A stretch of 62,690 bases of DNA from an uncultured Candidatus Poseidoniales archaeon (GTDB taxonomy: Archaea; Thermoplasmatota; Poseidoniia; Poseidoniales; Poseidoniaceae): the NCBI GenBank assembly GCA_964412625.1, contig CAYPPO010000005.1, forward strand, positions 1 through 62,690, written 5' to 3'. The notes beneath the pieces are model-generated. The model ran no database searches. It saw only the letters and a list, made by a program, of their open reading frames with translations, and was not told the origin of the DNA. Shown piece after piece: positions 12,283 to 55,284 of the stretch; the first letter of the stretch is position 1, and each line of letters opens with the position of its first letter. The position numbers and the translations under genes are program-made.

Positions 12283-12295
12283 GAAAATACACCGT

Positions 12296-13271: not shown

Positions 13272-14216
13272 ATGCGTAAAGAATGGCATGTCGGAATTGT
13301 CATTCCTGCGAGAAATGAGCAAGAGTTCATTGGAACTGTAATTGAATCAATTCCAGATTTTGTTGACAAAATTATTGTTGTTAATGACGGGTCATCAGAT
13401 AATACAAAAAAAATAGTTGAAGAAAAGATTAATGCTAAAAATAAAATTGAGTTGATAAATTTGGCTGGCGAAGGTGTTGGTCGTGCTATCGATTGTGGAC
13501 ATCAATATCTGTTAGATAATCTGCAAAAACCATTTGTGAGCGTGGTTATGGCTGGTGACGGGCAAATGGATGTTGAAGATTTGCCACATGTGATTGAACC
13601 GATAATTCAAGAACAAACCGATCACGTAAAAGGTAACAGATTTCACCATCCTGATGGGACTGGAAACATGCCTGCTACGAGGAAATTAGCTAGTAAACTG
13701 TTAGGATTTTTCACCACTTTGGCTGCTGGCCGGCAAGTAACTGACCCGCAATGTGGTTATACTGCTACCAGCCACATCGTGCTTGAGAATTGGAATTGGA
13801 ATGTTTCATGGAAAGGTTATGGCTATCCAAATTATTGGTTAATTGAGATGTCTAAAAAGTCATTTCGACTCAAAGAGGTTCCTGTTAAATCGGTCTACGC
13901 AAACGAAAAGTCAGGAATAAAGAATTTCTCATTTTTCATCTCAGTAGGTTTAATGATGTTGGTAATGCACCATAAAAGGTGCTTTTCGATGTTATTTAGT
14001 AGGTCAGTAGCGCCACACACAATTCTAGCTTTTACCGCATATGCCATAGGATGGATTGCTTTAATTCCCGGAATAAGCACAGATCTTGAACGTGAGTTAA
14101 CCAGTGGATTTCCCTCAAAACTTGTATTGGTATTACTATGTTGGATATGCGCTCATATATTTGACCGACTAGCAGTAAAATCAAGAACGGAGTTGAGAAT
14201 AAATGCGCAGGCATGA
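13272..14216 (+). CDS. Glycosyltransferase family 2 (Dol-P-Man synthase-like)
   Basis: IVIPARNE, VVNDGSSD, MAGDGQMD, VKGNRF, TDPQCGY and EVPVKSVY, followed by two TM helices. Confidence 0.9.
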   Translation: MRKEWHVGIVIPARNEQEFIGTVIESIPDFVDKIIVVNDGSSDNTKKIVEEKINAKNKIELINLAGEGVGRAIDCGHQYLLDNLQKPFVSVVMAGDGQMDVEDLPHVIEPIIQEQTDHVKGNRFHHPDGTGNMPATRKLASKLLGFFTTLAAGRQVTDPQCGYTATSHIVLENWNWNVSWKGYGYPNYWLIEMSKKSFRLKEVPVKSVYANEKSGIKNFSFFISVGLMMLVMHHKRCFSMLFSRSVAPHTILAFTAYAIGWIALIPGISTDLERELTSGFPSKLVLVLLCWICAHIFDRLAVKSRTELRINAQA

Positions 14217-14532: not shown

Positions 14533-14610
14533 TGGTGGGCGTACCAAGATTTGAACTTGGGTCCAAGCGTCCCAAACGCCCGAGTATAGGCCAAACTAAC
14601 CCATACGCCC
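14533..14610 (-). tRNA. tRNA-Pro (anticodon TGG), CCA encoded
   Basis: Reverse complement: GGGCGTA/TACGCCC acceptor stem, anticodon loop TTTGGGA, CCAAG-TTCAAAT-CTTGG T-arm, ends ACCA. Two G-U pairs at the top of the anticodon stem. Confidence 0.92.
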
Positions 14611-30425: not shown

Positions 30426-31430
30426 TTATCTACGCCTTGATGAATTCATGTCGACTCTACGCATGTTCTTTTTCTTGTCAGACTTCCTTGACCTACCCTT
30501 AGATACAAAATCTTCTTGGCTCAGCCCGCCGAAGGTAATGCTACCTGTTGAAAGTAAGGATTTAGTTAGTTTCTCTGCAACTCGCTCGGATTGAGCACCG
30601 GTTTGCATTTCTTCAGCAACTGCTGCGTTGTGATCAGTTAACCATGATTTCCTCTCCTCACGCACAGATTTTAATTCGTCACGAGCTTTATTGACATCCA
30701 CCATCAATTCCTCAATCTTAGCGTGAACATCATTGGCCTTTTCCTTTAGCTCAACAAATTCAGTATGAAAACGGTCTCCTTCTGCTTTTAAGAAATCGCG
30801 GTGTGCGAATGCCTCATCGACTTCTGGTGTCTTGAGGTTCAATCTTTCCACGGCCTGTATCATCTCGTTGTGTGCAGCGTCTGCCTCAGATTTCAAGGTT
30901 TTAATTGCGGCATCAATATCTGACATATCGACTTCGACCATCTTGAATTTTGTAACCTCTGGTTCTAGTTCTTCTATTCTCTTGGAGAATTCCTTAATTT
31001 TTTTGACCATTTCTTTTTCTTTATTGATGCCAACCGAAGTTGTTTCAAATTTCTTCTCAAGTGAATCAACTTGCTGTTTTAAGTCTGCATACTCTGCTGT
31101 TGCAGAGCGCTTGCTGTTGTGATCTTTCCTTTTTCCCTTGATTTGTGAAATCAAATCTCGCATTTGGCTTTGAATAGTATTCCGCTTTTCTTTAAAGGAT
31201 TTTATTTCGGCGCGCATTGCTCTAACTTCGGCTACCAACAACTCTATTTTCCCACGATGCTCTTTGTACTGAGACTGCACTGAATTTCTTTTTTCAGCAG
31301 AAACTTTGGCCTGAGCATTGAAATTATTTCTGGTTTCACGCATCTTGCGAACTTTTGTTTCCATCGCATGGAGTCTTTCACGTAAGTCTGCATCTGGCCT
31401 TTCATCACCGTCATTCAGTCTACCGCGCAT
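30426..31430 (-). CDS. Archaeal coiled-coil protein (COG1340-like)
   Basis: Heptad-rich throughout; RNNFNAQ, SLEKKFETTSVGINKEKEMVKKIKE and ADAAHNEM patterns. Confidence 0.75.
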   Translation of the reverse strand: MRGRLNDGDERPDADLRERLHAMETKVRKMRETRNNFNAQAKVSAEKRNSVQSQYKEHRGKIELLVAEVRAMRAEIKSFKEKRNTIQSQMRDLISQIKGKRKDHNSKRSATAEYADLKQQVDSLEKKFETTSVGINKEKEMVKKIKEFSKRIEELEPEVTKFKMVEVDMSDIDAAIKTLKSEADAAHNEMIQAVERLNLKTPEVDEAFAHRDFLKAEGDRFHTEFVELKEKANDVHAKIEELMVDVNKARDELKSVREERKSWLTDHNAAVAEEMQTGAQSERVAEKLTKSLLSTGSITFGGLSQEDFVSKGRSRKSDKKKNMRRVDMNSSRRR

Positions 31431-31481: not shown

Positions 31482-33167
31482 TCAAACAATGATATATGTT
31501 AGCAAAGAGGCTGAAATCAAAGTGCCAATAATGCCAATCATATTGAATACCACAGACGACGCCGACCGTATGCGCTCTTTGAACACCGACCTTATCCTAA
31601 CATTCATCTGTGAACCAACCAATAATTCGCCATTGACTTCCTCTAGCCTAACACTGACCGTCGCCTCACCAAACCTTTCTGGCAGCAAGGTTTGCCAAGC
31701 AACAGTTCCGTCGCGTAAAAGGGCGGACATGATTGCTAAAATATCTTCATTCCCTGATTGGGCAAGAGGAACGCCAGTATCCGGCCAAACTTTTTCCTCA
31801 CCTGGTTGTAAAAGATATGTCATAGCGATATCGTGCGGTCTAAAATCAGGAGATTGAACTCTCAAGACCACCGTTCTAGGTTCATCCGATAAATTGTGCA
31901 TGTAAGTGAAAAGATTGGCTTTTCCATGAACAACATTCTCCATATCAACTTCGAAGATAATATCATCATTGATCGACTTCCTTCCCGAAGCTAGGTCCTC
32001 TTCGATACGACCGATCATTCGGAAAAATGCAGGACACCTAAGTTCTAAATGGTCAATTATCAAAAGCCATTCTTCAATGGTAAAAACTTCGTGAGTTCTA
32101 ACTAATTCAACCCCTGCTTTAGTAAACACCTCAGAGAATTCGGATTCGACCGAAGATAAATCTAGACCCTTTGAGTGCTTATACAAAGTCATCATCATCT
32201 TCTCTCTGGCAAATCTGGGGTCCACTCCACGCTTAACATGCGACTCTAATTCCCTAGTAAAAACCTCATATTCTGATTTGAGTAACGGATCTAGTTGTGA
32301 TTTAACTAAATCGGAGAACACCATGTCAAGAGTAGAAGGATGTATCGGAGAATTGTAAGCGTTCAGTAATCCAGTTCTTTCAGCCATGTTAAAGCTGGAT
32401 GATCTCGTTGAAACATGTTGTCCCACAGATAGGACAGTTAACGAAAATGAAAGTGCTAAACAGTATTTGCCCATATCTGTTTGAATTCCATAGAATGCAA
32501 TAGCAGAAAGTGAAAATATTGCTAGCAAAGCGCAGACTAATGAGAAAAAGTGTTTTGTTACTGAGCGCTTAATTGAATCTTCTAATGGTTCATAACCATG
32601 AAGAGATTTTATAGAAAGATGCTTTGATTGGGCAGATTTTACTTGCTCTTCAAATGTTTTTATAGTCAGGTTGACTCTATGACGATGCAATGCTAGTGCT
32701 AATATGTATCCAAGTAAAATTACGAAAACTAGGGCAACAAGAATTGTTGAAAAACTCTGTCCAATAGTAGGTTCGATAAAATCAACCCACCAACTAGGCG
32801 AGGAACTAGAATATGCCCAAGCGCCAAAATAAGCCAGTATAGCGAAACCTGGCAAGAATAGTAACAGCCTAATTCCAAACGATATTAATTGTCTGTCGAA
32901 AGCATATAGAAATGATTCATTATTCCACTTACTCAACTGTTTCATAGATTTTGAACTCAAATTTTTAACAGTAGCAGAGAATTTCACTTTTTCAGAACTT
33001 TCTTTTTCTTGCAAGACATCTGACGTGACCTCATTTTCAAGGTTTTTGACCGGTTCCCCACCACTTGGCTTTTCTGGCTTGTCAACTCTAGATTTCTCAG
33101 CCTTGTCATTGTCTGCCATATCATTTCCAGTAAGACAATACTCTAAAGTGTTAAGTTCTAAAATCAC
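31482..33167 (-). CDS. Hypothetical membrane protein (four N-terminal TM helices, large soluble domain, C-terminal TM)
   Basis: 561-aa ORF with clear hydrophobic segments. Likely true start at MADNDK (33119). Confidence 0.7.
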   Translation of the reverse strand: MILELNTLEYCLTGNDMADNDKAEKSRVDKPEKPSGGEPVKNLENEVTSDVLQEKESSEKVKFSATVKNLSSKSMKQLSKWNNESFLYAFDRQLISFGIRLLLFLPGFAILAYFGAWAYSSSSPSWWVDFIEPTIGQSFSTILVALVFVILLGYILALALHRHRVNLTIKTFEEQVKSAQSKHLSIKSLHGYEPLEDSIKRSVTKHFFSLVCALLAIFSLSAIAFYGIQTDMGKYCLALSFSLTVLSVGQHVSTRSSSFNMAERTGLLNAYNSPIHPSTLDMVFSDLVKSQLDPLLKSEYEVFTRELESHVKRGVDPRFAREKMMMTLYKHSKGLDLSSVESEFSEVFTKAGVELVRTHEVFTIEEWLLIIDHLELRCPAFFRMIGRIEEDLASGRKSINDDIIFEVDMENVVHGKANLFTYMHNLSDEPRTVVLRVQSPDFRPHDIAMTYLLQPGEEKVWPDTGVPLAQSGNEDILAIMSALLRDGTVAWQTLLPERFGEATVSVRLEEVNGELLVGSQMNVRIRSVFKERIRSASSVVFNMIGIIGTLISASLLTYIIV

Positions 33168-33826
33168 TCTTTAGGTGATATTAGTATCAGTTCTGCCAAT
33201 GTCGGAGAAATTAGTATCTTTTTGCCGTTGATTTCGAATTCCTCTTCACTTAATCGGCTAATTTCACAATCAATTTGAATATCTTGCTGGTTTAGATTCC
33301 CTATGATTTTTTGATTTGCACTGATTAATCTCACGGTTGAAACAAGACCTTTTTCTAAATCAGTGAGAGGAATCAACACCTTGCCCTCACCAAGGATTTT
33401 ATCTTCGACATCTTGGGACATGCTAGGTATTTTCACGCCATGGATATCAACGGTCGGGTTGTTAAAATATACTGTTAGTGCTGCTTCTAAATTATCGTCA
33501 ATTGCGTGCTCTAGCCGACATGCGGTCACGTGCTGATTACCATCAAATGGCAAGTGTTCAAGCAACATTTCTGCTAGGCGATAACGACGTTTCATTTTCC
33601 TACCGTGGACCAGGCCTTTCTCTGTTAACATCGAACCTTTGTATGGGATATACTCAAGATAGCCTTTAGCCGCAAGTCTCTGGACCATTTCAGTCGTAGA
33701 TGCAGGAGTTACCCGCAATGCCTCAGCAAGGTCACCGGTCCGAACTTTTGCCTCAGGATTTTTCTCGTAGAATTCGTATAAAGTTTTGAAATACATTTCC
33801 TCAAATTCTTTGATTGGATCAGACAT
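33164..33826 (-). CDS. DtxR/MntR family metal-dependent transcriptional regulator with FeoA-like C-terminal domain
   Basis: EMYFKTLY, HTH GDLAEALRVTPASTTEMVQRL, YIPYKG and ACRLEHA. Confidence 0.9.
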   Translation of the reverse strand: MSDPIKEFEEMYFKTLYEFYEKNPEAKVRTGDLAEALRVTPASTTEMVQRLAAKGYLEYIPYKGSMLTEKGLVHGRKMKRRYRLAEMLLEHLPFDGNQHVTACRLEHAIDDNLEAALTVYFNNPTVDIHGVKIPSMSQDVEDKILGEGKVLIPLTDLEKGLVSTVRLISANQKIIGNLNQQDIQIDCEISRLSEEEFEINGKKILISPTLAELILISPKE

Positions 33827-33885
33827 AAGACTACCCCGATAATTAATCCAATAATTCGTTTTTTAAATAATTGTATACTTTACAG

Positions 33886-36384
33886 TTAGGATGAACTAAA
33901 GACATTTTTACATGCTGGACATCTTACAGAACCTTCGTAGGATTCTGGAATACGTAAACTTTGAGAACATTCTGGACAAGAAATTTCTATCTTCCCGTCA
34001 TTCTTTACCGGGACCTCTTTATCAGGTATTTCGCTTTCAGTTTCTTCATCTTGTACTTCAGTGCCTGCACCGACTTCAAAACTATTCGAGCAATCAGGGC
34101 ACTTAACCGAACCTTGATAATTCTCTGGAACTCTTAGTTGTCTTGAGCAAACTGGACAACTAATTTCTATTTTTACGTCTGACAGCTGTGTTGTCTCGGG
34201 TTTAGATGATTGTTTTTTTGGCTTGTTTCTTGGTTGCTTGTTAGAATCCCCTTTAATTCTTACAGCGAGGATTATCAAGGCAGAAATTGCGAGGCCACCT
34301 AAAATTCCAGACCATGGAATTGAAATTTCTTCTTTCGATTCTTGCACAGTAATTGAAGACAGGAAATTTTGCTCAACGATTTTTGATTCACCATCATAAT
34401 CCCACTTTGCGGTCAATTTAACCTCATCTGTTTCGGGCCACGCAAAACTGAGTGTTATTGTCTGGGATGATCCGGCACTTAATGTTGGAGTAATAGTTTC
34501 GGCTAGCATAGTCCCGTCTTCTTTATTGTAAATGATTAATATTCCAGCAGATCCATCGATATTGCCTTGATTTTGAATCGAAACAGATACACTAGCTGAT
34601 TCACCAGCTGTTGGCCTGTTCGGGTTTGATTGCGAATTAAATACCATATTATATTCTGGCCTTTCTTGCGGTATCGATTTGGTAAATGATGTAAATGATG
34701 AAGCTGCGGTCCAATTTATTTCTTGAACCCTAATAATAACATAATCTCCATCCACAAAGCCGAAATTTATCGAACCTATTGTCTGACCCTCGTTTATTAG
34801 CATGTCAACATCATAGACGAAGATATCCTGTAAACCACCACCATAACCTAATTTGACATTTATTTCACGGTCTATTCCACTACTCAAATTCAAGGACCAG
34901 TGTGCAGTTAATCCGTCCTCAGTTGTCCAAGAGATATCATAGAGCGATAGTTCAAGGCTCTGTCGAACTGAGATTGGTAATGAAATTGTACCATTTATTC
35001 CATCCTCGACCTCTCCATCTGTAGTATATAGTGACCAATTGAATTGCTCATTCCCAGAATTCAGTAATGGAACAGTAATCGTTACTTCTCCTGCTTGATC
35101 AGGTTGAAGCGCGACTAAATTTCCTTGGTAATTTTCTGAGGATGATTCCATTCTCAAAGTCACGTTGCCTTGTTTTGTTCCTGTGTTACGAACTAATAGT
35201 GAAAAGGTTGCATCATCTCCTACATGCCAAGGGCCATCGGTCGCTGATGGACTGAAACTACCGGCGTATTCGAATAACGCTGATTCAACATCGAAAAGTA
35301 TGGATATATTGTTCAATGAATTTTCATCTATTCTTTGACCAGTAAAGTAACAAACAAGTTCGCCTGGTTTAATTGTTACAGAAAAATTGGCTGTTTCTGA
35401 GGTCGAACTAGAAATATCTACAGTTGAGTTATAGACTAACTCATCATTCAACATACAGTTTTGTGCACCCGTAAAGTCTACTGTTCCATTGTTGTAATTT
35501 GTCAAATAAATTTCCAGAGATTCACCCGAGATCAACTCATTGTCGTAATAATTTATCCAAGTTGATAATAGCGGAAGTGGAGGAGGATTTACTGGTTTTG
35601 TGAAATTTTGGTAATTATCGATGATATAATCATCAATCAAACCGCCGAGGCTAATTGAAACCGAGAATAATCCCTCAAAAACTTGAATTGTTGAATTAAA
35701 GACAACTATCTGTGTATTCATACCCATGATAACCAATGTAGGTGATGTTTGCACATCAATACTAATCCCATTATCGATCACTAAAGTTATATTACCTGTC
35801 CAATTATAATCTCCGTCATTTATTATGGGAATTTGGAATTGAACATAATCGCCGTCGCTCAATGAATTATTACCAGTAATAGCACCTGTTGAATCCACTG
35901 ATTCAGCCAGTATAGAAGAACTGGCAGCAATTGAAACATTCAACGGTTTTAATCGATGAATTGTTCTTTGAAAACTCAATAATTCATTACTTGATTCTAC
36001 GCCTAAATCACCAGACAAAACTACCGATATGGTAGTGTAGCCATAACTTAGTGTTGAGAAATTATAGATTATTGATTCAACACCTCCTTCTTCTAAAGAA
36101 TAATTAATCGAGGAGTTAGACAAAAGAGTACCATCGATTGCTGATGTTTCAAAATGTATTTGCCCAACAAAATTTTGTCCTGATCCCTGATTGGTTGCTG
36201 TTAAGTTAAATTCTAGATTATAGTAAGAGTTGTCTGTAGTTTCAAAATTTTCTAGGTTTATTGAATTCCCATCAATGGTAACCCCTGACTGTGTTGCTGC
36301 AACTTGAGGGGTAGGAATGATGAAAAAAAAAGCAACCATGATAGTCAGAACAGCAACTCTGACGCAGTTACTCTCACCCGCCAT
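33886..36384 (-). CDS. Secreted CARDB/Ig-like repeat protein with TM helix and two cytoplasmic zinc ribbons
   Basis: Signal peptide (start taken at ATG 36384), repeated N-x-G CARDB-like strands, TM WSGILGGLAISALIILAV, then two CPxC-x15-CPxC units. Confidence 0.8.
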   Translation of the reverse strand: MAGESNCVRVAVLTIMVAFFFIIPTPQVAATQSGVTIDGNSINLENFETTDNSYYNLEFNLTATNQGSGQNFVGQIHFETSAIDGTLLSNSSINYSLEEGGVESIIYNFSTLSYGYTTISVVLSGDLGVESSNELLSFQRTIHRLKPLNVSIAASSSILAESVDSTGAITGNNSLSDGDYVQFQIPIINDGDYNWTGNITLVIDNGISIDVQTSPTLVIMGMNTQIVVFNSTIQVFEGLFSVSISLGGLIDDYIIDNYQNFTKPVNPPPLPLLSTWINYYDNELISGESLEIYLTNYNNGTVDFTGAQNCMLNDELVYNSTVDISSSTSETANFSVTIKPGELVCYFTGQRIDENSLNNISILFDVESALFEYAGSFSPSATDGPWHVGDDATFSLLVRNTGTKQGNVTLRMESSSENYQGNLVALQPDQAGEVTITVPLLNSGNEQFNWSLYTTDGEVEDGINGTISLPISVRQSLELSLYDISWTTEDGLTAHWSLNLSSGIDREINVKLGYGGGLQDIFVYDVDMLINEGQTIGSINFGFVDGDYVIIRVQEINWTAASSFTSFTKSIPQERPEYNMVFNSQSNPNRPTAGESASVSVSIQNQGNIDGSAGILIIYNKEDGTMLAETITPTLSAGSSQTITLSFAWPETDEVKLTAKWDYDGESKIVEQNFLSSITVQESKEEISIPWSGILGGLAISALIILAVRIKGDSNKQPRNKPKKQSSKPETTQLSDVKIEISCPVCSRQLRVPENYQGSVKCPDCSNSFEVGAGTEVQDEETESEIPDKEVPVKNDGKIEISCPECSQSLRIPESYEGSVRCPACKNVFSSS
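33900..34173 (-). repeat. Tandem duplicated zinc-ribbon coding unit (about 94 bp x2)
   Basis: KIEISCPVCSRQLRVPENYQGSVKCPDC (34080-34173) versus KIEISCPECSQSLRIPESYEGSVRCPAC (33900-33993). Confidence 0.85.
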
Positions 36385-36473
36385 AGTTGGCTCAATTAGT
36401 TGAGGTTCTTGACCTTCGCGCAAAATCAAACATCTGCGCCATGTTTTTCAACATTGAATTTCACCCACTGCAC

Positions 36474-37163
36474 ATGACCCCCGAGGACTTATTGCGTGTT
36501 GAGCCTGAAGTCCTTGCAAAACTAATACTTCATAAAAGAGAGAGGATTTCCCACACCCTGCCAAAAATGCTCGAGTCGGTAGGTACAGAAAAGCAGACTG
36601 CGGAGCAACTCGCTCGTCGGTCACGGGATAAAAAAGCAGATATTGAACCAAAATTCAACAACCTGATCAAAGAGCGTAATGAGCTAACAAATTCAATTCC
36701 TCAAGAATTTAACTTAGGAGTTATGAATGCTACTGAGTTAAATGATTTCAACCAATTGTTGTCCCGGATTCAATCAGAAAAAACAACTCCGGACGAATTT
36801 TTACAATATCTCAAGAAATTATCTAACATTTGTTCTCAACACGGGTTTGAACTCGAAACATTGAGGAATTATAATTCTTCAATCAAGGCAAATCAGGCGC
36901 TCTCAGAATTATCTAACGATTACAAATTGGCCATGAGTAATTGGAATGAAAATGAATCTCACAGACGTAAGTTAGAATCAAAATTTACCAAATTGTCGGC
37001 AAATTTGAAAAATTCTGACGTGGCTATAGCATATTGGCAAGAAAAACTGAATTCCAATTTTGATGAACTACTGATTGATGCAAAACGAGTTGCCGATGGT
37101 GGCCCATCTAGCAGACAATTATCCCGAAACAAGAAACGAAGTAACAATCAAAGGGGGAGTTAA
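36474..37163 (+). CDS. Hypothetical coiled-coil protein
   Basis: Helical, heptad-rich. Start taken at ATG 36474 (TTTTTCAA box 23 nt upstream). Stop is 1 nt before the nucleotidyltransferase start. Confidence 0.7.
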   Translation: MTPEDLLRVEPEVLAKLILHKRERISHTLPKMLESVGTEKQTAEQLARRSRDKKADIEPKFNNLIKERNELTNSIPQEFNLGVMNATELNDFNQLLSRIQSEKTTPDEFLQYLKKLSNICSQHGFELETLRNYNSSIKANQALSELSNDYKLAMSNWNENESHRRKLESKFTKLSANLKNSDVAIAYWQEKLNSNFDELLIDAKRVADGGPSSRQLSRNKKRSNNQRGS

Positions 37164-37164
37164 T

Positions 37165-39231
37165 TTGTTGACTAATTTCGAGAACCAGAATATCGATATG
37201 AAGTATCTGAACAATTACTCATATGTCAAGGACGTAATCAACCAAGATTATCGGTTTAACAATGTAGTCGAAGATGACGAATACGTTGGAAATCTCGAAC
37301 GACAAATCCAGAAATTCGTCGAGACCCAAACCATAACTAAGCCTTTGACAAATAGAAGGAATGGTATTATCAAACATCTAAGAAAAATCCTGACAAACAA
37401 ATTCCAGACAGCTAAATTGTCATCCTTTGGTTCGTTTGAATCAGGATTAAGCCTCTCATTCGGAGACATTGACTTATGCCTTGAATTTGATGGTGGGGCG
37501 CCAAAAAATGTACTAAAAAAGATTGCTCGCATGCTAGATGAAGATGGAATGAACGATGTTAAAATAATCACTAATGCTAAAGTTCCAATTGTGAAATGTA
37601 TCGATGGTAAATCAAAGATAGCAATCGACATATCGGTAAATAACAATCTATCAGTGTACAATACAGAATTGCTCAGACGGTACAATAAACTAGATGCTCG
37701 AGTTAAACCATTTATCTTAGCGATAAAATATTGGGCGAGGAGTCGGGGTATTTGTGAACCAACATCGGGTACATTTTCTTCGTATGCTTGGACATTGATA
37801 GCTATCAATGCACTACAAACGATGGAAAACCCGGTGATTCCTAACTTAACCCCAAAAGACGGCCGCCAGGCAGTAACAATAGAAGGGAAGAAATTCGACA
37901 TATCGATGTTGGATGTAGAAAATATCAATTTCATCTCTAAAAATGCAGATACTACCGCAGAATTAATCATTAAATTCTTTTCTTACCTTGCACTCAAGTG
38001 GCCATGGAATGACTCCGTTATTTCTGTAGGCAGTGGCAGGTTGTTATCAAGGAAACAGAAAAACTGGGAACACCAAAAGCCGTATATCAACACCGTGATT
38101 CAAGAAAAAAAACCAGTTCGTGTTGGTAAACATCCGCTACCAGTAGAGGATCCATTTGATCAATTACATGACTTGAGCGTAGTATTGGATGCAGAGGGCG
38201 TTTTCGAGATAAGAGATGAGGTGCTAAGAGCTCATGCGTTAATTCACGAATCAAATGATTGGGCCACAATTTGTCAAATAAAATACCCAGAACTATCTTA
38301 TGGCACACCTCAATTGGATTTGTTTGAAGATTTAAGAAGTAAAAATGAATCTGAAATTAAAGAAGAATTGCAAGAGCTTTTTTCACATCTAAATCGAGTA
38401 GAAAAAAGTGTATCTGTACGAGAAAGCGAAAGAAATGATGCAATTAGAATGTCAAAAGCCCTAAGAAAAAATGCTGAATTAGCTAGAGAACAGGCATCAC
38501 TGTCATCCGAACTAAAACCAAGAAGGTCGAAAATTCATGAACTACAGAGTAAACGAGACCTAAGCAACAATCATTACATTCCAGTTCATTTTATTGAAGA
38601 GGAATTACAGCGGGTCTATTATGCTCTGAGTCAAGAAGCTGAAACCGGCATAGAATTGTCTTTTGAAAAGGAGAAGTATTTGTTTTCTTGGTTTTTTGAG
38701 TTACAAAGTATGCATAAGCATGCAAAATTAACTAGAAAATACCACCGTGAATTCCTTAAATTAGTTAACCAACAGGAGCAATCCATTGAGCACATCAGTA
38801 GCATCCGTGAAGGAATTATCAACGTCTCCAACCTTGGAACATTTACTCAATTTGATGACTTAGCAAGGCGTTTACTTGCAGAGTTGAATCCGCTAAAAAA
38901 AGAGCGAAGAAGGCTCCGAAGAGAAATCGGTCGGTTGGAGGCATGGCTAAGAAAGCTTAACTTCACTGAGAAAAATCGCACGTCAAGCAAGAAACGGTTC
39001 AACAAAAGCAGGAAATCCCACAGTGCGATAACTGAAGTCAAAAATAAAGTGATATCCGGTGATTCTTTTTCATTACAGGACCTAGATATATTACTGAAAA
39101 ATGGTGGCATTAATTCGGTCGATAAGCAAACCGCTAATACACACAAAACCAACACCAAATCGAGGAAAAATAAACCATCGCTTCAACCGCACAGAGGTAA
39201 AAGAGGGAAATCCGCAAAAAATAGTCAATAA
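37165..39231 (+). CDS. Eukaryote-like Cid1/TUT4-7/TRF4-family terminal nucleotidyltransferase (NTase + PAP-associated domain) fused to a COG1340-like coiled coil
   Basis: FGSFESGLSLSFGDIDL (Asp at 37465 and 37471), AKVPIVKC, IDISVNN (Asp 37627), NTELL, IKYWARSRGI, GTFSSYAWTL, LIIKFFSY and NRM VEDPFDQLHDLS (His 38167). Start likely TTG 37165/37168 after GGGGAG, or ATG 37198. Confidence 0.88.
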   Translation: MLTNFENQNIDMKYLNNYSYVKDVINQDYRFNNVVEDDEYVGNLERQIQKFVETQTITKPLTNRRNGIIKHLRKILTNKFQTAKLSSFGSFESGLSLSFGDIDLCLEFDGGAPKNVLKKIARMLDEDGMNDVKIITNAKVPIVKCIDGKSKIAIDISVNNNLSVYNTELLRRYNKLDARVKPFILAIKYWARSRGICEPTSGTFSSYAWTLIAINALQTMENPVIPNLTPKDGRQAVTIEGKKFDISMLDVENINFISKNADTTAELIIKFFSYLALKWPWNDSVISVGSGRLLSRKQKNWEHQKPYINTVIQEKKPVRVGKHPLPVEDPFDQLHDLSVVLDAEGVFEIRDEVLRAHALIHESNDWATICQIKYPELSYGTPQLDLFEDLRSKNESEIKEELQELFSHLNRVEKSVSVRESERNDAIRMSKALRKNAELAREQASLSSELKPRRSKIHELQSKRDLSNNHYIPVHFIEEELQRVYYALSQEAETGIELSFEKEKYLFSWFFELQSMHKHAKLTRKYHREFLKLVNQQEQSIEHISSIREGIINVSNLGTFTQFDDLARRLLAELNPLKKERRRLRREIGRLEAWLRKLNFTEKNRTSSKKRFNKSRKSHSAITEVKNKVISGDSFSLQDLDILLKNGGINSVDKQTANTHKTNTKSRKNKPSLQPHRGKRGKSAKNSQ

Positions 39232-39243
39232 AGTGATTGTGTT

Positions 39244-39717
39244 ATGAAATTAAAATGGATTTTAGGCCCTAGGCCTGAGAATATGTCACAACATTGGCAA
39301 GCGAAAGTAACCGAACTCTTCAAACAAGAAACCGGAGAAACTTACACCGAGACAACCTTCAGAATGCTCGGAATTCCGGAATGGTATGGAAATAAACTTC
39401 TGATAGATACTGCCATTTATCCATCACCAGATTCATTATTTGGTGTAATGTGGTCCAAACCATTACTTGACGATCGAATTCGGATTGTCGCACTCGTAAT
39501 TGATAAGCAAGCACAGAACAACAATTACGGCACTGATATAATCTCGGAATTAATCAATACATCAAAAAAAACTGGGAAAAATCACATTCAGTTAGAAGTG
39601 CGGAAATCAAATCACAGAGCGCAGAATTTTTACTCGCGACACGGGCTGAAAATAGAAAGAACCATTCAAAATTATTACTCCAATGAGGATGGTTTTGTGA
39701 TGTGTGGTAAACTGTGA
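39244..39717 (+). CDS. GNAT N-acetyltransferase (RimI/Ard1-like)
   Basis: IVALVIDKQAQNNNYG (acetyl-CoA loop), LEVRKSNHRAQNFYSRHG and NYYSNEDGFVM. Confidence 0.85.
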   Translation: MKLKWILGPRPENMSQHWQAKVTELFKQETGETYTETTFRMLGIPEWYGNKLLIDTAIYPSPDSLFGVMWSKPLLDDRIRIVALVIDKQAQNNNYGTDIISELINTSKKTGKNHIQLEVRKSNHRAQNFYSRHGLKIERTIQNYYSNEDGFVMCGKL

Positions 39718-39756
39718 CTGTGATTACAATTATACACCTCACCGATATGACAATCC

Positions 39757-40089
39757 ATGGAGGAGTTTGTCGTTTCTGATTTGAGTGACTCTGAGTACAT
39801 ATTTAGTGCTGCAATATTAGATGATCAAGGTTTCATAAAAACATCAAACCCTGAAGATTCCAAGACGAAGGAACGATTGGCAAAATTTGCTGAAGTACTA
39901 TATGCATCAGATGATTTTGAAAAAACCACAATTATTACTGAACACCGTATTTTAGTAATTCACAGATTGGTTAGAAATTTTACGTTAGTAGTCGAGTGTT
40001 CAACAGATTCAAATTTAGGCATGATACGTGACGAGGTTACCGACGCAGTGACCCGCTTAGACACTTACTTTAATTCGACATCGAGGTAA
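39757..40089 (+). CDS. Roadblock/LC7-like small protein
   Basis: SAAILDDQGFIKTS near the N-terminus, and TLVVECSTDSNLGMIR...AVTRL C-terminal helix typical of Roadblock/MglB domains. Confidence 0.65.
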   Translation: MEEFVVSDLSDSEYIFSAAILDDQGFIKTSNPEDSKTKERLAKFAEVLYASDDFEKTTIITEHRILVIHRLVRNFTLVVECSTDSNLGMIRDEVTDAVTRLDTYFNSTSR

Positions 40090-40182
40090 TTAACGTATAT
40101 ATGCTGTCAATCGTCAATATCAAGCATTAAATGGGGGATATAGGTCCCAAGGACAGTGTAAGGTGGGAATCTTGCACACAAG

Positions 40183-41070
40183 GTGAGTATTGTAATGAGT
40201 GAAATTAATCAAATTCTTGAACAAAAAAAGAATATGGTAAATGAAAAAGCAACAAAATTTCGTGAAACAAGAGATGAATGGAACAAGAAATCCAAAACAC
40301 ATTCCACCGCAAGAAACGAATTAAATGCTGAAGTTAAGGAATTGATTGTCCAAGTAAGAGAGCAACGTGAAATTAGAGAACAAATGAACGAAATTGTCCG
40401 TGAAAAGAAAACGGTCAGACAAGAAGCAAATTCTGCAGTAAAAGAGATTAAATCCCGAATAGAGTCCAGTAGAGGCCCAGTTGAGCAAGATAACTCCCGA
40501 GGCAGGCGAGGGCAAAGACCCGTTACATCTCACCAACTCAGGCGAGAACTTGAAAGACTTGAAAGAGAATTTGAGCAAGGCAGACATACTGGTAAGAACG
40601 AAAAGAAAGTTATGAAAAGAATGAAAGAAATCAGTTCAAAACTAAAGCAAATGACGACAATCGATGAAGGTAATGAAGACATGAAGGGCCTAAGAATTGA
40701 ATTGAAGTCCGCTCTTGAAAAGCAAGAGGAAGCCCATGAAGAAGTGCAAAATGCAGCAAACGCTGCACAAGAGGCACATGAACTGATGCTACAGTGGAAC
40801 AAAGAAGTTGACAAACAAAGAGACAAGGCTGAATCTTGTCATAGAGAATTACGTAAGTCAAAGAAAGAAGCAGATAAGGCTCATCACTTATACATAGTTT
40901 CGTTACGTTGTTTGCACTCTATTCAAGACATGATTTCAGCAATGTCTGGAAGTGAAGAAACCACTGGAAAATCCGAAGCAAGAGTCGAAGTTCAGGATTT
41001 GATGACTAAACTAATGTCTGGTGACACATTGTCTACTGAAGAACTAATGCAGCTGCAGAAATTTGATTGA
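40183..41070 (+). CDS. Archaeal coiled-coil protein (COG1340-like)
   Basis: RDEWN, RNELNAEV, LERLEREFEQ...NEKKVMKRMKE, AQEAHELM, ADKAHH and C-terminal KLMSGDTLSTEELM. Confidence 0.8.
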   Translation: MSIVMSEINQILEQKKNMVNEKATKFRETRDEWNKKSKTHSTARNELNAEVKELIVQVREQREIREQMNEIVREKKTVRQEANSAVKEIKSRIESSRGPVEQDNSRGRRGQRPVTSHQLRRELERLEREFEQGRHTGKNEKKVMKRMKEISSKLKQMTTIDEGNEDMKGLRIELKSALEKQEEAHEEVQNAANAAQEAHELMLQWNKEVDKQRDKAESCHRELRKSKKEADKAHHLYIVSLRCLHSIQDMISAMSGSEETTGKSEARVEVQDLMTKLMSGDTLSTEELMQLQKFD

Positions 41071-41104
41071 AACATGATACATAGTAGAGTCGCATTAAAG
41101 ATAG

Positions 41105-42271
41105 GTGTTCAGTATGATAGGCAAGGACGATATTGCGTTGATTGTTGAGGAGTATGACCGTTTAAAATTACGAATTGGAATGACGGCATCTCATTCTGCA
41201 CTTGACATTTGTGATGGGGCAATAGAAGAAGGGTTTCCAACTGTAGCCTATTGCAAAGAGGGGCGTCACAAAACTTATGCAAATTATTTCAAGACACACC
41301 GAACCGGCTCTGGTAGAGTAAAACGTGGAATGGTTGACAAAACAATCATCATGCCTTCATTTAATGATGTAATGCAAGAGAGTATGCAAGTCGAAATGCG
41401 AAAAAGAAATGTTGTCTACATCCCTAACCGATCATTTACTTCATATTCAACAATTGATGATGTAGAAAATAACTTCCATGTTCCCTTATTTGGCTCAAGA
41501 AACATGCTAAGGATGGAAGAAAGAACTGAAGAACAAGATTATTACTGGATTCTAGAGAAAGCAGGATTGCCGTTTCCTGAAGCCATTCATAACCCTGAGG
41601 AAATCGACTGCTTAGTAATTGTAAAGCTTCATCATGCACAGAAAAAACTAGAACGGGGATTCTTCACCTGTGCATCTTATCAAGAGTATACCGAAAAATC
41701 CCAAGAACTCTTGAAAACGGGGATTATTGATCAAACATCATTAGACGGTGCTCGAATTGAAAAGTACGTTATTGGACCTGTTTTCAACCTAAATTTCTTT
41801 TACAGCCCATTATCAGACGAAGGAGAAAAATTGGAACTGCTTGGTGTTGATTGGCGCTTTGAATCGTCACTAGATGGGCATGTTAGGTTACCCGCTCCTC
41901 AACAAATGACAATGCCATTACATCAACAAATTCCTGAAATGACAGTGGTTGGACATAACACGGCAACAATTAGAGAATCGCTATTAGAGAAGGCGTTTGA
42001 ACTCGGCGAGAAATTTATCAAAGCAAGCAAAGAGTATTATGATCCGGGGATAATTGGTCCATTTTGTCTACAAACCTGTATTGACAAAGATATGAACTAT
42101 TACATCTATGATGTTGCTCCAAGGCTAGGAGGTGGCACAAATGTACATGTCAACGTTGGACATCCATATGGAAATGCAACCTGGAGAAAACCAATGTCAA
42201 GTGGCAGGCGAATTGCGATGGAATTGCGCATGGCTGCTGAACAAGATCGCTTATTAGAAGTATTAACTTGA
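41105..42271 (+). CDS. PurP-like formate--phosphoribosylaminoimidazolecarboxamide ligase family protein (ATP-grasp)
   Basis: ASHSALDICDGAIEEGF, IPNRSF, PLFGSRNMLR, RGFF, IGPFCLQ and DVAPRLGGGTN. Likely ATG start at 41114. Confidence 0.88.
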   Translation: MFSMIGKDDIALIVEEYDRLKLRIGMTASHSALDICDGAIEEGFPTVAYCKEGRHKTYANYFKTHRTGSGRVKRGMVDKTIIMPSFNDVMQESMQVEMRKRNVVYIPNRSFTSYSTIDDVENNFHVPLFGSRNMLRMEERTEEQDYYWILEKAGLPFPEAIHNPEEIDCLVIVKLHHAQKKLERGFFTCASYQEYTEKSQELLKTGIIDQTSLDGARIEKYVIGPVFNLNFFYSPLSDEGEKLELLGVDWRFESSLDGHVRLPAPQQMTMPLHQQIPEMTVVGHNTATIRESLLEKAFELGEKFIKASKEYYDPGIIGPFCLQTCIDKDMNYYIYDVAPRLGGGTNVHVNVGHPYGNATWRKPMSSGRRIAMELRMAAEQDRLLEVLT

Positions 42272-55161: not shown

Positions 55162-55210
55162 GCCAGACCCCTCAAACACCCGCAACATGCTAGACCGGCA
55201 GCGAATCAGG

Positions 55211-55284
55211 CGGGCCCGACGGGGTTCGAACCCGCGACCGTCCGGTTAAAAGCCGGATGCTCTACCTGACTGAGCTACAGGCCC
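55211..55284 (-). tRNA. tRNA-Lys (anticodon TTT)
   Basis: Reverse complement: GGGCCTG acceptor strand, TCCGG-CTTTTAA-CCGGA anticodon arm, GGTTCGAACCC T-arm; 74 nt, no intron. Confidence 0.96.

What the first reader, a model, noticed from the sequence alone, without database searches (positions are those of the whole stretch)
36474..42271. Operon around the nucleotidyltransferase: coiled coil - TUTase - GNAT - Roadblock - COG1340 - PurP-like
Seen: six co-oriented genes with gaps of about 1, 12, 39, 90-105 and 35-45 nt, a TATA-like box 23 nt before the first, and GGGGAG before the NTase start. Inference: the first four or five genes form one module. Two coiled-coil proteins could scaffold the enzyme, the RimI/Ard1-like acetyltransferase could modify it or its RNA/ribosomal targets, and the Roadblock protein could act as an adaptor. 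The PurP-like gene may be incidental. I know of no described system with this composition.
Basis: inference. Interest (0 to 1): 0.7.

Follow-up and report, generated by a model that had tools for sequence, protein, structure and literature searches.

The report
Archaeal uridylyltransferase four-gene operon
Marine Group II archaea carry a tightly coupled four-gene operon (a coiled-coil protein, a eukaryote-type RNA uridylyltransferase, an acetyltransferase and a Roadblock adaptor) that no described system matches; the two genes after it are a separate unit.

Summary
The six co-oriented genes are real and lie at the stated coordinates and spacings. Their order is kept in all 50 related loci examined, although partial loci hold only part of the block and two lineages have a gene inserted on the opposite strand. 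The flanking genes are equally syntenic, so gene order alone proves little.

Finer evidence splits the region in two.
- **g1 to g4:** g1, g2 and g3 are translationally coupled. The g1/g2 spacing is -4 to +2 nt, and the ribosome-binding sites for g2 and g3 lie inside or at the stop of the preceding gene. Metatranscriptome contigs bridge g1/g2 and g2/g3. In deeper lineages g3 and g4 also overlap by 4 nt.
- **g5 and g6:** g5 has its own conserved TTAAAT box and a covarying leader hairpin. It evolves 3-10 times more slowly and shows a 4-26-fold step up in RNA depth. In two lineages an opposite-strand KaiC-like gene separates it from g4.

New points:
- g1 is a diverged paralogue of g5 (DUF7121/COG1340), and a third paralogue lies upstream.
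- g2 is a Cid1/TUT4/7-type enzyme that keeps the U-selecting histidine. It is found only in Poseidoniales, and its next-best matches that carry a source name are eukaryotic.
- One clade has lost all catalytic residues of g2 yet keeps the operon.

The function is inferred, not shown.

The parts
36444..36451 (+). TATA-like box of the g1 promoter (TTTTTCAA here; TTTATT[CG]AA in relatives), 23-30 nt before the g1 ATG. The g1 mRNA is therefore probably leaderless or has a very short leader.
   Evidence: Conserved in position in the 27 related loci compared. RNA depth is near zero just upstream of g1 and rises inside it in four metatranscriptomes laid on L026. The promoter function itself is inferred.
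36474..37163 (+). g1: a 229-aa coiled-coil protein, a fast-evolving paralogue of DUF7121/COG1340. Conserved N-terminus MTPEDLLxVxPxxLAKxILH[KR]RE. C-terminus LLxDAKRVxxGGPSS followed by a basic tail.
   Evidence: 9 of 22 orthologues hit PF23435, best E 2.6e-10. Precomputed DUF7121 hits lie on the g1 position in L039-L050. hhalign g1 against g5 gives E 4e-6 and against the third paralogue 1.5e-7; reversed controls are 0.12 or worse. The window copy alone gives no Pfam hit.
37153..37159 (+). Shine-Dalgarno-like GGGGGAG for g2, lying inside the last codons of g1.
   Evidence: Conserved as GGAGG or GGAGGTGA, 5-12 nt before the g2 start, in all 15 related loci compared. In distant lineages the g1 C-terminal GGEEE codons themselves spell GGAGGTGAAGAAGA-ATGA.
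37165..38304 (+). g2, N-terminal half: the catalytic and PAP-associated domains of a Cid1/TUT4/TUT7/URT1-type terminal nucleotidyltransferase, predicted to be U-specific.
   Evidence: Pfam PF22600 at 106 bits and PF03828 at 38 bits. Profile against PDB: TUT7 1.8e-71, TUT4 1e-70, URT1 6e-64, Cid1 4.5e-50. G89-S90, D101/D103 and D155 are conserved. His335 aligns with Cid1 H336 and the URT1 histidine, the marker of confirmed poly(U) polymerases (PMC3479196).
38305..39231 (+). g2, C-terminal half: a roughly 300-aa antiparallel coiled-coil domain (motifs MSKALRKN and FSWFFELQSM), then two short helices carrying SGDSFSLQDL, then a lysine/arginine-rich tail.
   Evidence: Conserved at full length in all family members, about 665-726 aa. 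AlphaFold2 model with pLDDT 78 gives helices 24-96, 103-118, 129-179 and 189-227, then 248-260 and 266-274. Foldseek returns only generic coiled coils. No significant link to DUF7121.
39244..39717 (+). g3: a 157-aa GNAT acetyltransferase of the Ard1/RimI/Naa type, with a family-specific N-terminal region of about 75 aa.
   Evidence: PF00583 at 38 bits. TIGR01575 rimI scores 63 bits, below the cut-off of 86. The best PDB match is 4PV6, an ARD1 N-terminal acetyltransferase subunit, E 7e-6. The stop of g2 overlaps the site TGAGGTGAT in relatives, and the gap is usually 0-27 nt. The acetyl-CoA motif QxxGxG is canonical in most orthologues but reads QNNNYG here.
39728..39735 (+). Possible internal promoter box for g4 (AATTATAC here; CAAAGGTTA[TA]GC in other lineages), about 22-30 nt before the g4 start.
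   Evidence: Conserved within clades. RNA contigs start just inside g4, and none bridges g3/g4 among those shown. In the deeper lineages g3 and g4 overlap by 4 nt, so no such promoter exists there. Inference only.
39757..40089 (+). g4: a 110-aa Roadblock/LC7 (MglB-like) domain protein, the fastest-evolving of the six.
   Evidence: 16 of 19 orthologues hit PF03259, best E 3e-4. The L045 orthologue scores 29 bits against a cut-off of 23. Profile against PDB: Roadblock/LC7 proteins 9jue E 0.004 and 7f8m E 0.022, with MglC and MglB weaker. An HMM finds it in every locus where tblastn missed it; only L042/L043 carry a truncated remnant.
40127..40132 (+). TATA box TTAAAT of the separate g5-g6 promoter, preceded by CAAGCA.
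   Evidence: Near-invariant: TTAAAT in 18 of the 20 loci aligned, TTATAT in L042 and TCTTAT in L032. RNA depth steps up 4-26-fold about 25-65 nt before the g5 ATG in three of four metatranscriptomes. A window-matching RNA contig starts at 40162.
40156..40177 (+). Conserved hairpin in the g5 leader: a 9-bp stem with a GGGA loop. The ribosome-binding site AGGTGAG follows at 40181-40187.
   Evidence: RNAalifold: 9 pairs, 7 of them with compensatory changes. MFE -12.3 kcal/mol, z -2.5. No Rfam family matches. Absent or different in L039 and L042.
40195..41070 (+). g5: a 291-aa canonical DUF7121/COG1340 coiled-coil protein, slowly evolving. It heads a separate transcription unit and is not part of the transferase module.
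   Evidence: PF23435 at 64 bits against a cut-off of 29. 53-94% identity across loci where g2 is 30-72%. AlphaFold2 model with pLDDT 83 shows two helices of about 90 residues plus two short C-terminal helices. Separated from g4 by a minus-strand KaiC-like gene in L042-L050.
41114..42271 (+). g6: a 385-aa PurP-family ATP-grasp protein (FAICAR synthetase-like), co-transcribed with g5.
   Evidence: PF06849 and PF06973. NCBIfam PurP equivalogs score 309 bits, below the cut-off of 556. 83-97% identity across loci. RNA contigs bridge g5/g6 in five runs.
30426..31430 (-). Context: a third DUF7121 paralogue (334 aa) four genes upstream on the opposite strand. It carries the same type of C-terminal motif followed by a basic tail.
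   Evidence: Pfam E 6e-5, below the cut-off. hhalign against g5 gives E 3.5e-9. Sequence read. Conserved at this position in 29 related loci and also called in L045/L046 and L049/L050.

Best explanation
The region holds two adjacent units rather than one six-gene operon.

**Unit 1 (g1-g2-g3-g4)** is an operon specific to Marine Group II (Poseidoniales). I read it as encoding the subunits of one complex built round a eukaryote-type terminal uridylyltransferase.
- g2 supplies the catalytic Cid1/TUT-type domain. It also has a long antiparallel coiled-coil arm and a basic tail that would hold RNA.
- g1, a diverged copy of the housekeeping coiled-coil protein DUF7121, is made in fixed proportion by translational coupling. 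It most likely pairs with the coiled-coil arm of g2.
- g3, an Ard1/RimI-like acetyltransferase, is coupled in the same way. It would acetylate a partner protein or a substrate.
- g4, a Roadblock/LC7 protein, would act as a dimeric adaptor.
- The expected activity is addition of non-templated U to RNA 3' ends.

**Unit 2 (g5-g6)** pairs the conserved DUF7121 orthologue with a PurP-family enzyme. It has its own promoter and structured leader and is more highly expressed. Its link to unit 1 is mainly that g1 is a paralogue of g5; which copy came first was not tested.

**Shown:** gene coupling, conservation, transcript bridging, domain identities, catalytic-residue conservation and its loss in one clade.
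**Inferred:** the physical complex, the RNA substrate, U-specificity, and the roles of g1, g3 and g4.

I put the two-unit architecture at about 0.85 and the 'one tailing complex' reading at about 0.4-0.5.
For: **Coupling.** The g1/g2 spacing is +1, -1, -4 or +2 nt in all 34 loci of the first set that hold both genes, and -4 in L039-L050. The ribosome-binding site of g2 lies in the last codons of g1, and that of g3 overlaps the g2 stop. g3 and g4 overlap by 4 nt in L045 and by 8 nt as called in L049; in L047 they are 5 nt apart.

**Transcripts.** Metatranscriptome contigs bridge:
- g1/g2 in 2 runs on the window and 4 runs on L026;
- g2/g3 in 1 and 3 runs;
- g5/g6 in 1 and 4 runs.
A contig bridges g4 to g5 in only one run. 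Depth rises 4-26-fold just before g5.

**Separability.** A minus-strand KaiC-like ATPase gene sits between g4 (or its remnant) and g5 in L042-L050, while g1-g3/g4 stay intact.

**Evolutionary rates.** Mean Kimura distances are g1 1.26, g2 0.86, g3 0.84 and g4 1.40, against g5 0.34 and g6 0.09.

**The enzyme.** PDB profile hits to TUT7, TUT4, URT1 and Cid1 range from 1e-71 to 1e-50. The catalytic G-S, DxD and third Asp are conserved. The U-selecting His is conserved.

**Distribution.** An exhaustive search finds about a dozen full-length archaeal clusters (208 bits or more), all of this architecture; every one that carries a source name is Poseidonia or unclassified archaeon. Scores then drop to eukaryotic TUT-like proteins at 179 bits or less.

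**Paralogy.** g1, g5 and the third copy are related at hhalign E 4e-6 to 3.5e-9, with reversed controls at 0.12 or worse.
Against: - There is no direct evidence that the four proteins bind each other or that g2 tails RNA.
- The whole neighbourhood of 11 or more genes on both strands is syntenic in these genomes. Order conservation therefore adds little, and archaeal operons can mix unrelated functions.
- A clade with at least three sublineages has lost every catalytic carboxylate and the His of g2 yet keeps the operon. Tailing therefore cannot be the whole function.
- The residual rate-covariation test gave no signal among g1-g4.
- Roadblock proteins usually accompany small GTPases, and none is in the operon.
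- No RNA contig shown bridges g3/g4. A conserved box before g4 suggests it may be transcribed separately in MGIIa.
- The RNA evidence comes from assembled contigs, which can contain DNA.
Confidence: 0.5

Rival explanations
1. The complex is centred on the acetyltransferase or on scaffolding, not on RNA tailing. The NTase-fold domain of g2 would serve mainly as a binding or scaffolding module, as the inactive NTase domain of TUT4/7 does. The coiled coils and Roadblock would position an Ard1-like acetyltransferase on its targets, for example nascent chains or ribosomal proteins, loosely as Naa15 positions Naa10.
For: The pseudo-enzyme clade keeps g1-g4 tightly coupled after losing G-S, both DxD aspartates, the third Asp and the His. 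Its g3 keeps a canonical acetyl-CoA motif, RGRGLA or RLKGYA. The best solved relative of g3 is an ARD1 N-terminal acetyltransferase subunit.
Against: In all other lineages the catalytic residues of g2 are conserved, and nearly all are invariant, which argues for selection on catalysis. The window's own g3 has a deviant acetyl-CoA motif, QNNNYG. No TPR scaffold like Naa15 is present. The g3 match to Ard1/RimI is below the NCBIfam cut-off.
Confidence: 0.15
2. An operon of convenience. g1-g4 are co-transcribed and g1-g3 translationally coupled, but they act in unrelated processes. The arrangement persists only because Poseidoniales genomes rearrange slowly here.
For: Flanking genes on both strands are equally syntenic in the loci long enough to show them: the DtxR-like repressor, the CARDB surface protein, the TSP3-repeat protein and the RNA polymerase subunit. 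Rate covariation gave no signal. The functions of the four parts have no established connection.
Against: The 4-nt overlaps and embedded ribosome-binding sites persist across lineages that differ by 65-75% in these proteins. They persist even where downstream synteny is broken and a gene has been inserted next to the block. g1-g4 share a fast rate that contrasts with their neighbours g5 and g6. g2 was never found outside this context in 50 loci.
Confidence: 0.2
3. All six genes, or at least g1-g5, form one functional module. The conserved DUF7121 protein g5 would work with the transferase complex.
For: g1 and g5 are paralogues. g5 follows g4 in every locus, directly or after one inserted gene. 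One RNA contig reads from g4 into g5 (X5). g2 and g5 share a short C-terminal motif SGD[ST][FL]S[LT]xxL and a similar predicted helix topology.
Against: g5 has its own invariant TATA box and leader hairpin. RNA depth steps up 4-26-fold before it. An opposite-strand insertion separates g4 and g5 in two lineages. Rates differ 3-10-fold. The similarity of the g2 C-terminus to DUF7121 is no better than the controls.
Confidence: 0.1
4. An anti-virus or conflict system built on a nucleotidyltransferase.
For: NTase-fold enzymes and coiled-coil or SMC-like proteins recur in defence systems. There are weak PADLOC hits: g1 to LmuB and PDC-S01 at E about 1e-3 to 1e-4, and g2 to PDC-S09 at 2.5e-4.
Against: The hits are coiled-coil noise and far from significant. 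The genes sit at a fixed, vertically inherited position beside core genes such as RNA polymerase and purP, not in a variable island. They are present in every lineage sampled.
Confidence: 0.03

Closest known systems
Eukaryotic Cid1-family terminal uridylyltransferases (S. pombe Cid1, Arabidopsis URT1, human TUT4/TUT7) and their accessory-protein complexes
   Same: The g2 N-terminal half has the same catalytic palm and PAP-associated domains, the G-S/DxD/D catalytic set and the U-selecting histidine. As in eukaryotes, the catalytic domain has no classical RNA-binding domain and is likely to depend on extensions or partners.
   Different: The host is an archaeon. The enzyme is fused to a roughly 300-aa coiled coil and a basic tail instead of zinc knuckles or a Lin28-interacting module. 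It is encoded in an operon with a DUF7121 paralogue, a GNAT and a Roadblock protein, none of which is a known TUTase partner. There is no Dis3L2-type or Lsm-type reader in the locus.
TRAMP complex (Trf4/5, Air1/2, Mtr4)
   Same: The concept is shared: a non-canonical nucleotidyltransferase working in a stable complex with non-catalytic partners that bring the RNA.
   Different: No zinc-knuckle (Air) or helicase (Mtr4) homologue is present. The His at the nucleotide-recognition position predicts U rather than A. The partners here are coiled-coil, GNAT and Roadblock proteins.
DUF7121 / COG1340 archaeal coiled-coil proteins
   Same: g5 is a clear member. g1 and the upstream gene at 30426-31430 are diverged paralogues.
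   Different: [quoted passage not shown] Recruitment of a fast-evolving paralogue into an operon with a nucleotidyltransferase has not been described.
Roadblock/LC7/MglB platform proteins (MglB-MglA, Ragulator LAMTOR2-5, dynein LC7)
   Same: g4 has the Roadblock/LC7 signature and size.
   Different: These proteins normally partner a small GTPase or dynein. No GTPase gene is in or beside this operon.
NatA-type N-terminal acetyltransferase (Ard1/Naa10 with the helical scaffold Naa15) and bacterial RimI
   Same: The nearest solved relative of g3 is an ARD1 N-terminal acetyltransferase subunit, 4PV6, and its best NCBIfam model is rimI. It is co-encoded with large helical proteins.
   Different: Scores are below the family cut-offs. 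The helical partners are coiled coils, not TPR. The window's own copy has a deviant acetyl-CoA motif.

Membership tests
Cid1/TUT-type non-canonical nucleotidyltransferase (g2) | Pol-beta-like palm with the G-S motif, DxD and a third catalytic Asp | tested here: met
   FGSFESGLSLSFGDIDL and IDIS. G89 and D103 are invariant in both alignments, D155 in A1 and in all active lineages of A7, and S90/D101 are near-invariant in active lineages. PF22600 scores 106 bits against a cut-off of 27.
Cid1/TUT-type non-canonical nucleotidyltransferase (g2) | PAP-associated (PAP/25A core) domain following the palm | tested here: met
   PF03828 scores 38 bits against a cut-off of 22.6. It aligns with URT1 and Cid1 across this domain.
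Cid1/TUT-type non-canonical nucleotidyltransferase (g2) | Histidine at the nucleotide-recognition position (Cid1 H336) that marks poly(U) polymerases | tested here: met
   VEDPFDQLHDLS aligns with Cid1 IEDPFEISHNVG and URT1 IEDPFETSHDLG. H335 is invariant in A1. The rule comes from PMC3479196.
Cid1/TUT-type non-canonical nucleotidyltransferase (g2) | Template-independent addition of UMP to RNA 3' ends | not testable with these tools
   This needs an enzyme assay or 3'-end sequencing of raw reads.
DUF7121 / COG1340 (g5, g1, g2 C-terminus) | Match to the PF23435 profile over most of its length | tested here: met
   g5 scores 64 bits against a cut-off of 29, covering profile positions 38-303 of 307. 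For g1 the window copy has no hit, but 9 of 22 orthologues hit (best E 2.6e-10) and profile-profile E is 4e-6. The g2 C-terminal domain does NOT meet it: no Pfam hit in 5 lineages, and hhalign E 0.002-0.017 against controls of 0.011-0.26.
Roadblock/LC7 (g4) | Match to PF03259 and a size of about 100-125 aa | tested here: met
   16 of 19 orthologues match. L045 scores 29 bits against a cut-off of 23. PDB Roadblock proteins match at E 0.004-0.02. The window copy alone is below detection. The fold was not modelled.
Roadblock/LC7 (g4) | Genomic or functional pairing with a small GTPase (MglA/Rag/Arf-like) | tested here: not met
   No GTPase gene lies within the block or its immediate flanks in any locus table.
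Ard1/RimI N-alpha-acetyltransferase (g3) | GNAT fold with the acetyl-CoA motif Q/RxxGxG/A, and a score above the family-specific cut-off | tested here: inconclusive
   PF00583 is met at 38 bits against 20.7. TIGR01575 rimI scores 63 against 86, so it is not met. 4PV6 ARD1 matches at E 7e-6. The motif is canonical in most orthologues but reads QNNNYG in the window.
PurP (FAICAR synthetase) (g6) | DUF1246 and DUF1297 ATP-grasp architecture, and a score above the equivalog cut-off | tested here: inconclusive
   Both Pfam domains are strong, at 138 and 254 bits. The best NCBIfam equivalog scores 309 bits against a cut-off of 556.
Single operon g1-g6 | One promoter, no internal promoters, and an uninterrupted co-oriented block in relatives | tested here: not met
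   g5 has a conserved TATA box and leader. RNA depth steps up before g5. An opposite-strand gene lies between g4 and g5 in L042-L050.
Operon g1-g2-g3(-g4) | Overlapping or abutting genes with embedded ribosome-binding sites, and transcripts that bridge the junctions | tested here: met
   for g1/g2 and g2/g3. g3/g4 overlap by 4 nt in L045 and by 8 nt as called in L049. No bridging contig was seen for g3/g4 in MGIIa.
TRAMP-like complex | Zinc-knuckle RNA-binding subunit and a Ski2-type helicase | tested here: not met
   Neither domain occurs in the six genes or their flanks.
Known anti-phage defence systems (PADLOC) | Significant match of components to defence-system models | tested here: not met
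   Only weak hits to g1 (LmuB, PDC-S01, DruC) and g2 (PDC-S09), E 2e-4 or worse.

The most novel reading that the evidence does not exclude
Marine Group II archaea, among the most abundant archaea in the surface ocean, may possess an RNA 3'-uridylation machinery. It would be a complex of a eukaryote-type TUTase, a coiled-coil partner, an acetyltransferase and a Roadblock adaptor, with the enzyme probably acquired from a eukaryote and then fused to a coiled-coil arm. One clade would have converted the enzyme into a pseudo-enzyme while keeping the complex. This would be the first uridylation system outside eukaryotes and a new kind of NTase-GNAT-Roadblock assembly.
Probability: 0.3. Interest if true: 0.8.

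Novelty: new variant of a known kind. Interest (0 to 1): 0.62.

Why it matters
As far as I know, RNA tailing by Cid1-type uridylyltransferases is treated as a eukaryotic trait, and archaea are thought to tail RNA, if at all, through the exosome.

A conserved and expressed operon built round such an enzyme in a globally abundant archaeal order would give a concrete, testable entry into archaeal RNA 3'-end modification. It would also be a case of eukaryote-to-archaeon gene flow that became embedded in a host-specific complex.

It gives the first functional handle on a paralogue of DUF7121/COG1340, a conserved archaeal family of unknown function.

The pseudo-enzyme clade is a natural experiment that separates the catalytic role from the structural one.

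On method, the case shows that order conservation within a highly syntenic order is not evidence of a module. Junction anatomy, insertions and transcript structure were what resolved it.

Tried and rejected
1. **Is the C-terminal coiled coil of g2 a DUF7121 domain, which would make g2 a fusion with a g1/g5-like protein?** Not supported.
   - Pairwise BLASTP found nothing.
   - Pfam gave no hit in five lineages.
   - hhalign E was 0.002-0.017 against reversed-profile controls of 0.011-0.26.
   - Foldseek of both models returns the same generic SMC-arm and SH3BP5 coiled coils, all above E 0.006.
   - What remains is a short shared C-terminal motif and a similar helix topology.

2. **Evolutionary-rate covariation among the genes.** I used residuals of pairwise Kimura distances across 20 loci. 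Correlations were weak (|r| 0.5 or less) with no g1-g4 cluster. Uninformative.

3. **Defence-system models (PADLOC).** Only weak hits to g1 and g2, E 2e-4 or worse.

4. **Rfam for the g5 leader.** No match.

5. **Sequence search of g5 against PDB.** No hit.

6. **The sigma-70 promoter and terminator scanner.** Not used, because the organism is an archaeon (RNase P RNA). I compared conserved boxes across loci instead.

7. **Literature searches for COG1340/DUF7121, TUTase in archaea or Poseidoniales, and Roadblock with GNAT.** No description of this system.

8. **Family-level taxonomy of the deeper lineages (L039-L050).** It could not be settled from source names. Whether they are MGIIb is unknown, and MGIII was not reached.

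Full report
**1. The observation**

The window is archaeal. It carries an archaeal RNase P RNA at 948-1244, and its closest relatives are Poseidoniaceae, that is Marine Group IIa.

- g1: 36474-37163
- g2: 37165 (TTG) to 39231
- g3: 39244-39717
- g4: 39757-40089
- g5: 40195 (ATG; an in-frame GTG lies at 40183) to 41070
- g6: 41114 (ATG; GTG at 41105) to 42271

The gaps are 1, 12, 39, 105 (93) and 43 (34) nt. GGGGGAG at 37153-37159 precedes the g2 start by 5 nt.

Pfam and NCBIfam give these assignments:
- g2: MTPAP-like palm plus PAP-associated domain
- g3: GNAT; the best model is rimI, below its cut-off
- g5: DUF7121
- g6: the two PurP domains, below the NCBIfam equivalog cut-offs
- g1 and g4: no hit on their own

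**2. Is conservation of the order meaningful?**

A scan of one genome per GTDB species returned 38 loci, all Poseidoniales. Every locus that holds the region keeps the g1 to g6 order.

The five flanking genes I tracked on the opposite strand are kept just as well. These are a 561-aa membrane protein, a DtxR-like repressor, a CARDB/zinc-ribbon surface protein, a TSP3-repeat protein and an RNA polymerase subunit. Gene order alone therefore cannot separate a module from general synteny.

**3. Junction anatomy**

- **g1/g2:** the stop and start are 1 nt apart or overlap by 1 or 4 nt in 33 of the 34 loci of the first set that hold both genes, and are 2 nt apart in the other. A GGAGG or GGAGGTGA site lies inside the last g1 codons. 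In distant lineages the g1 C-terminal residues GGEEE are the ribosome-binding site plus the ATGA overlap.
- **g2/g3:** the gap is usually 0-27 nt, and the site (TGAGGTGAT) overlaps the g2 stop. There is no room for a promoter.
- **g3/g4:** the spacing is 7-66 nt in the first set, with a clade-conserved box about 22-30 nt before the start (AATTATAC here, CAAAGGTTATGC elsewhere). This could be an internal promoter.
- **g4/g5:** the spacer is always 87-156 nt. It holds a near-invariant TTAAAT (TTATAT in L042, TCTTAT in L032), a 9-bp hairpin in which 7 of 9 pairs show compensatory changes, and an AGGTGA site.
- **Before g1:** a T-rich box lies 23-30 nt before the ATG and is conserved in position.

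**4. Deeper lineages give natural experiments**

I followed g5 homologues of 53-57% identity to their contigs. The RNA polymerase subunit there is only 70-78% identical to the window's.

- **L039-L041** keep all six genes.
- **L042-L044** keep g1-g2-g3. Only a truncated remnant of g4 remains, and a KaiC-like ATPase gene on the opposite strand lies between it and g5.
- **L045-L050** hold three sublineages that are 44-45% identical to each other in g2. They keep g1-g2-g3-g4, with a 4-nt overlap at g1/g2. g3 and g4 overlap by 4 nt in L045 and by 8 nt as called in L049, and are 5 nt apart in L047. The opposite-strand KaiC-like gene follows, then g5-g6. Synteny downstream of g6 is different.

So g1-g4 travel as one block, g5-g6 travel as another, and the two can be separated.

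**5. Transcripts**

Assembled metatranscriptome contigs laid on the window bridge g1/g2 (37000-38141 and 37134-37286), g2/g3 (39023-39312) and g5/g6 (40299-41513).

On L026, a distant MGIIa relative, I used four metatranscriptomes from different studies:
- Contigs bridge g1/g2 in 4 runs, g2/g3 in 3, g5/g6 in 4, and g4 to g5 in 1.
- None of the contigs shown bridges g3/g4.
- Depth is near zero just upstream of g1.
- Depth rises 4-26-fold about 25-65 nt before the g5 ATG in three runs.

Contigs are a blunt tool: they are flat in depth, can include DNA, and are not stranded. Even so, the picture matches the junction anatomy.

**6. What the proteins are**

**g2.** A profile of the family hits solved structures of TUT7 (1.8e-71), TUT4, URT1, CutA and Cid1. 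G-S, DxD and the third Asp are conserved. His335 aligns with Cid1 H336, the residue found in all confirmed poly(U) polymerases (PMC3479196).

An exhaustive search of 1.84 billion representatives finds about a dozen full-length clusters of this archaeal architecture, at 208-858 bits and 673-726 aa. The source names are Poseidonia or archaeon. Scores then drop to 179 bits or less, and of the five highest-scoring such proteins looked up, four carry a source name and all four are eukaryotic: a mollusc CCHC TUT-like protein, Fabomonas, Filamoeba and Pigoraptor. The fifth is an unnamed metagenome protein.

The C-terminal 300 residues are conserved throughout the family. They model as an antiparallel coiled coil plus two short helices and a basic tail.

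**g1.** It is a DUF7121 paralogue. So is a third gene at 30426-31430 on the minus strand.

**g3.** Its best match among solved structures is an ARD1 N-terminal acetyltransferase subunit, 4PV6.

**g4.** It is a Roadblock/LC7 protein by orthologue and profile evidence.

**g5.** It models as two helices of about 90 residues plus two short helices. No informative structural neighbour was found.

**7. A pseudo-enzyme clade**

In L045, L047 and P0512 the g2 orthologue is 30% identical to the window's over 634 residues (E 5e-60). It has these substitutions:
- SGN or SGI in place of FGS
- GGIE[LV] in place of GDxDL
- VRIS in place of [IV]D[IL]S
- K, Y or F in place of the U-selecting His

It gives no Pfam NTase hit. 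The coiled-coil half, the C-terminal motif and the operon are retained, and g3 keeps a canonical acetyl-CoA motif. Whatever the block does, part of it does not need catalysis by g2.

**8. Interpretation**

The best-supported reading is two units.

Unit 1 (g1-g4) is a Poseidoniales-specific operon. Its products most likely form one complex round a terminal uridylyltransferase. Translational coupling suggests fixed stoichiometry, above all for g1 and g2. A paralogous coiled coil next to a coiled-coil-bearing enzyme suggests heteromeric pairing. The basic tails suggest RNA binding. These steps are inference.

Unit 2 (g5-g6) is a conserved and more strongly expressed pair. Its adjacency to unit 1 may reflect local duplication, since g1 is a paralogue of g5. 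Which copy is ancestral was not tested.

The rivals are:
- an acetyltransferase-centred or purely structural complex, which the pseudo-enzyme clade favours;
- an operon of unrelated genes;
- a single six-gene module;
- a defence system, for which PADLOC gave nothing.

**9. Comparison with known systems**

g2 passes the sequence-level membership tests for the Cid1/TUT family. Its activity is untested.

The assembly does not fit TRAMP, because there is no zinc-knuckle protein and no helicase. It does not fit NatA, because there is no TPR scaffold. It does not fit MglA/MglB-type modules, because there is no GTPase.

DUF7121/COG1340 has no known function (PMC1322226). I found no paper describing this operon or a TUTase in Poseidoniales. 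The library is limited to open-access papers and preprints.

**10. Verdict**

- Novelty: a new variant of a known kind, namely a Cid1-type transferase in an unprecedented host, fusion and operon context.
- Interest is moderately high. The function rests on inference.

Noticed in passing
L045:6102-8102, L047:1226-3220, L049:10001-12016 (orthologues of window 37165-39231): A clade with at least three sublineages in which the transferase has lost the G-S motif, both DxD aspartates, the third Asp and the U-selecting His. It keeps its coiled-coil half and the g1-g4 operon, so it is a pseudo-enzyme.
   Followed up: yes
window 40156-40177 (leader of g5): A conserved 9-bp hairpin with a GGGA loop between the g5 TATA box and its ribosome-binding site. 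7 of 9 pairs covary across 18 MGIIa loci. No Rfam family matches. It is absent or different in two deeper lineages. It may be a regulatory or protein-binding leader for the DUF7121-PurP unit.
   Followed up: partly
window 30426-31430 (-): A third DUF7121 paralogue (334 aa), conserved at this position in the related loci that reach it. Three copies of this unknown-function coiled-coil family therefore lie within 11 kb.
   Followed up: partly
L042:9157-9882, L045:8988-9740, L047:4140-4916, L049:12940-13512 (all minus strand): A KaiC-like ATPase gene (PF06745) is inserted convergently between g4 and g5 in the deeper lineages. In L042/L043 it coincides with truncation of g4 to an 89-aa remnant.
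   Followed up: partly
window 39055-39130 (g2), 40990-41065 (g5), about 30500-30560 (third paralogue): g2, g5 and the third DUF7121 paralogue share a short C-terminal two-helix motif (roughly [VL]xxK[LV]xSGD[ST][FL]S[LT]xxL). In g2 and the third paralogue a Lys/Arg-rich tail follows. g1 has a related LLxDAKRVxxGGPSS plus basic tail. This may be a common docking motif. Statistical support is weak (hhalign E 0.016-0.085).
   Followed up: partly
window 33886-36429 (-): A large, fast-evolving CARDB-domain protein with two C-terminal zinc ribbons is transcribed divergently from g1. At most about 90 nt separate the two start codons, and the region is conserved in all loci that reach it. The two promoters must overlap.
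   Followed up: no
window 39520-39545 (g3 acetyl-CoA motif): The window's clade has QNNNYG (QCNNHG in L001) where most orthologues have the canonical QxxGxG. The acetyltransferase may be weakened in this clade.
   Followed up: partly
L006:5334-6117; L009:5887-5902; L035:9545-10021: Apparent disruptions in single genomes: g3 split by about 380 nt in L006, a frame break in g2 of L009, and a poorly matching g2 C-terminus in L035. These may be assembly errors or real lesions.
   Followed up: no
window 948-1244 (-), 7125-7199, 14533-14610, 55209-55284: An archaeal RNase P RNA and three tRNA genes (Lys-CTT, Pro-TGG, Lys-TTT) lie elsewhere in the window. Rfam's gathering threshold reported only the two tRNA-Lys genes; ARAGORN alone found the tRNA-Pro.
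   Followed up: no
window 12001-14000 and 32001-42000: GC content falls to 0.36-0.39 in these stretches, against 0.41-0.46 elsewhere. The whole g1-g6 block and its upstream neighbours lie in the lower-GC part, with a strongly positive AT skew on the coding strand.
   Followed up: no
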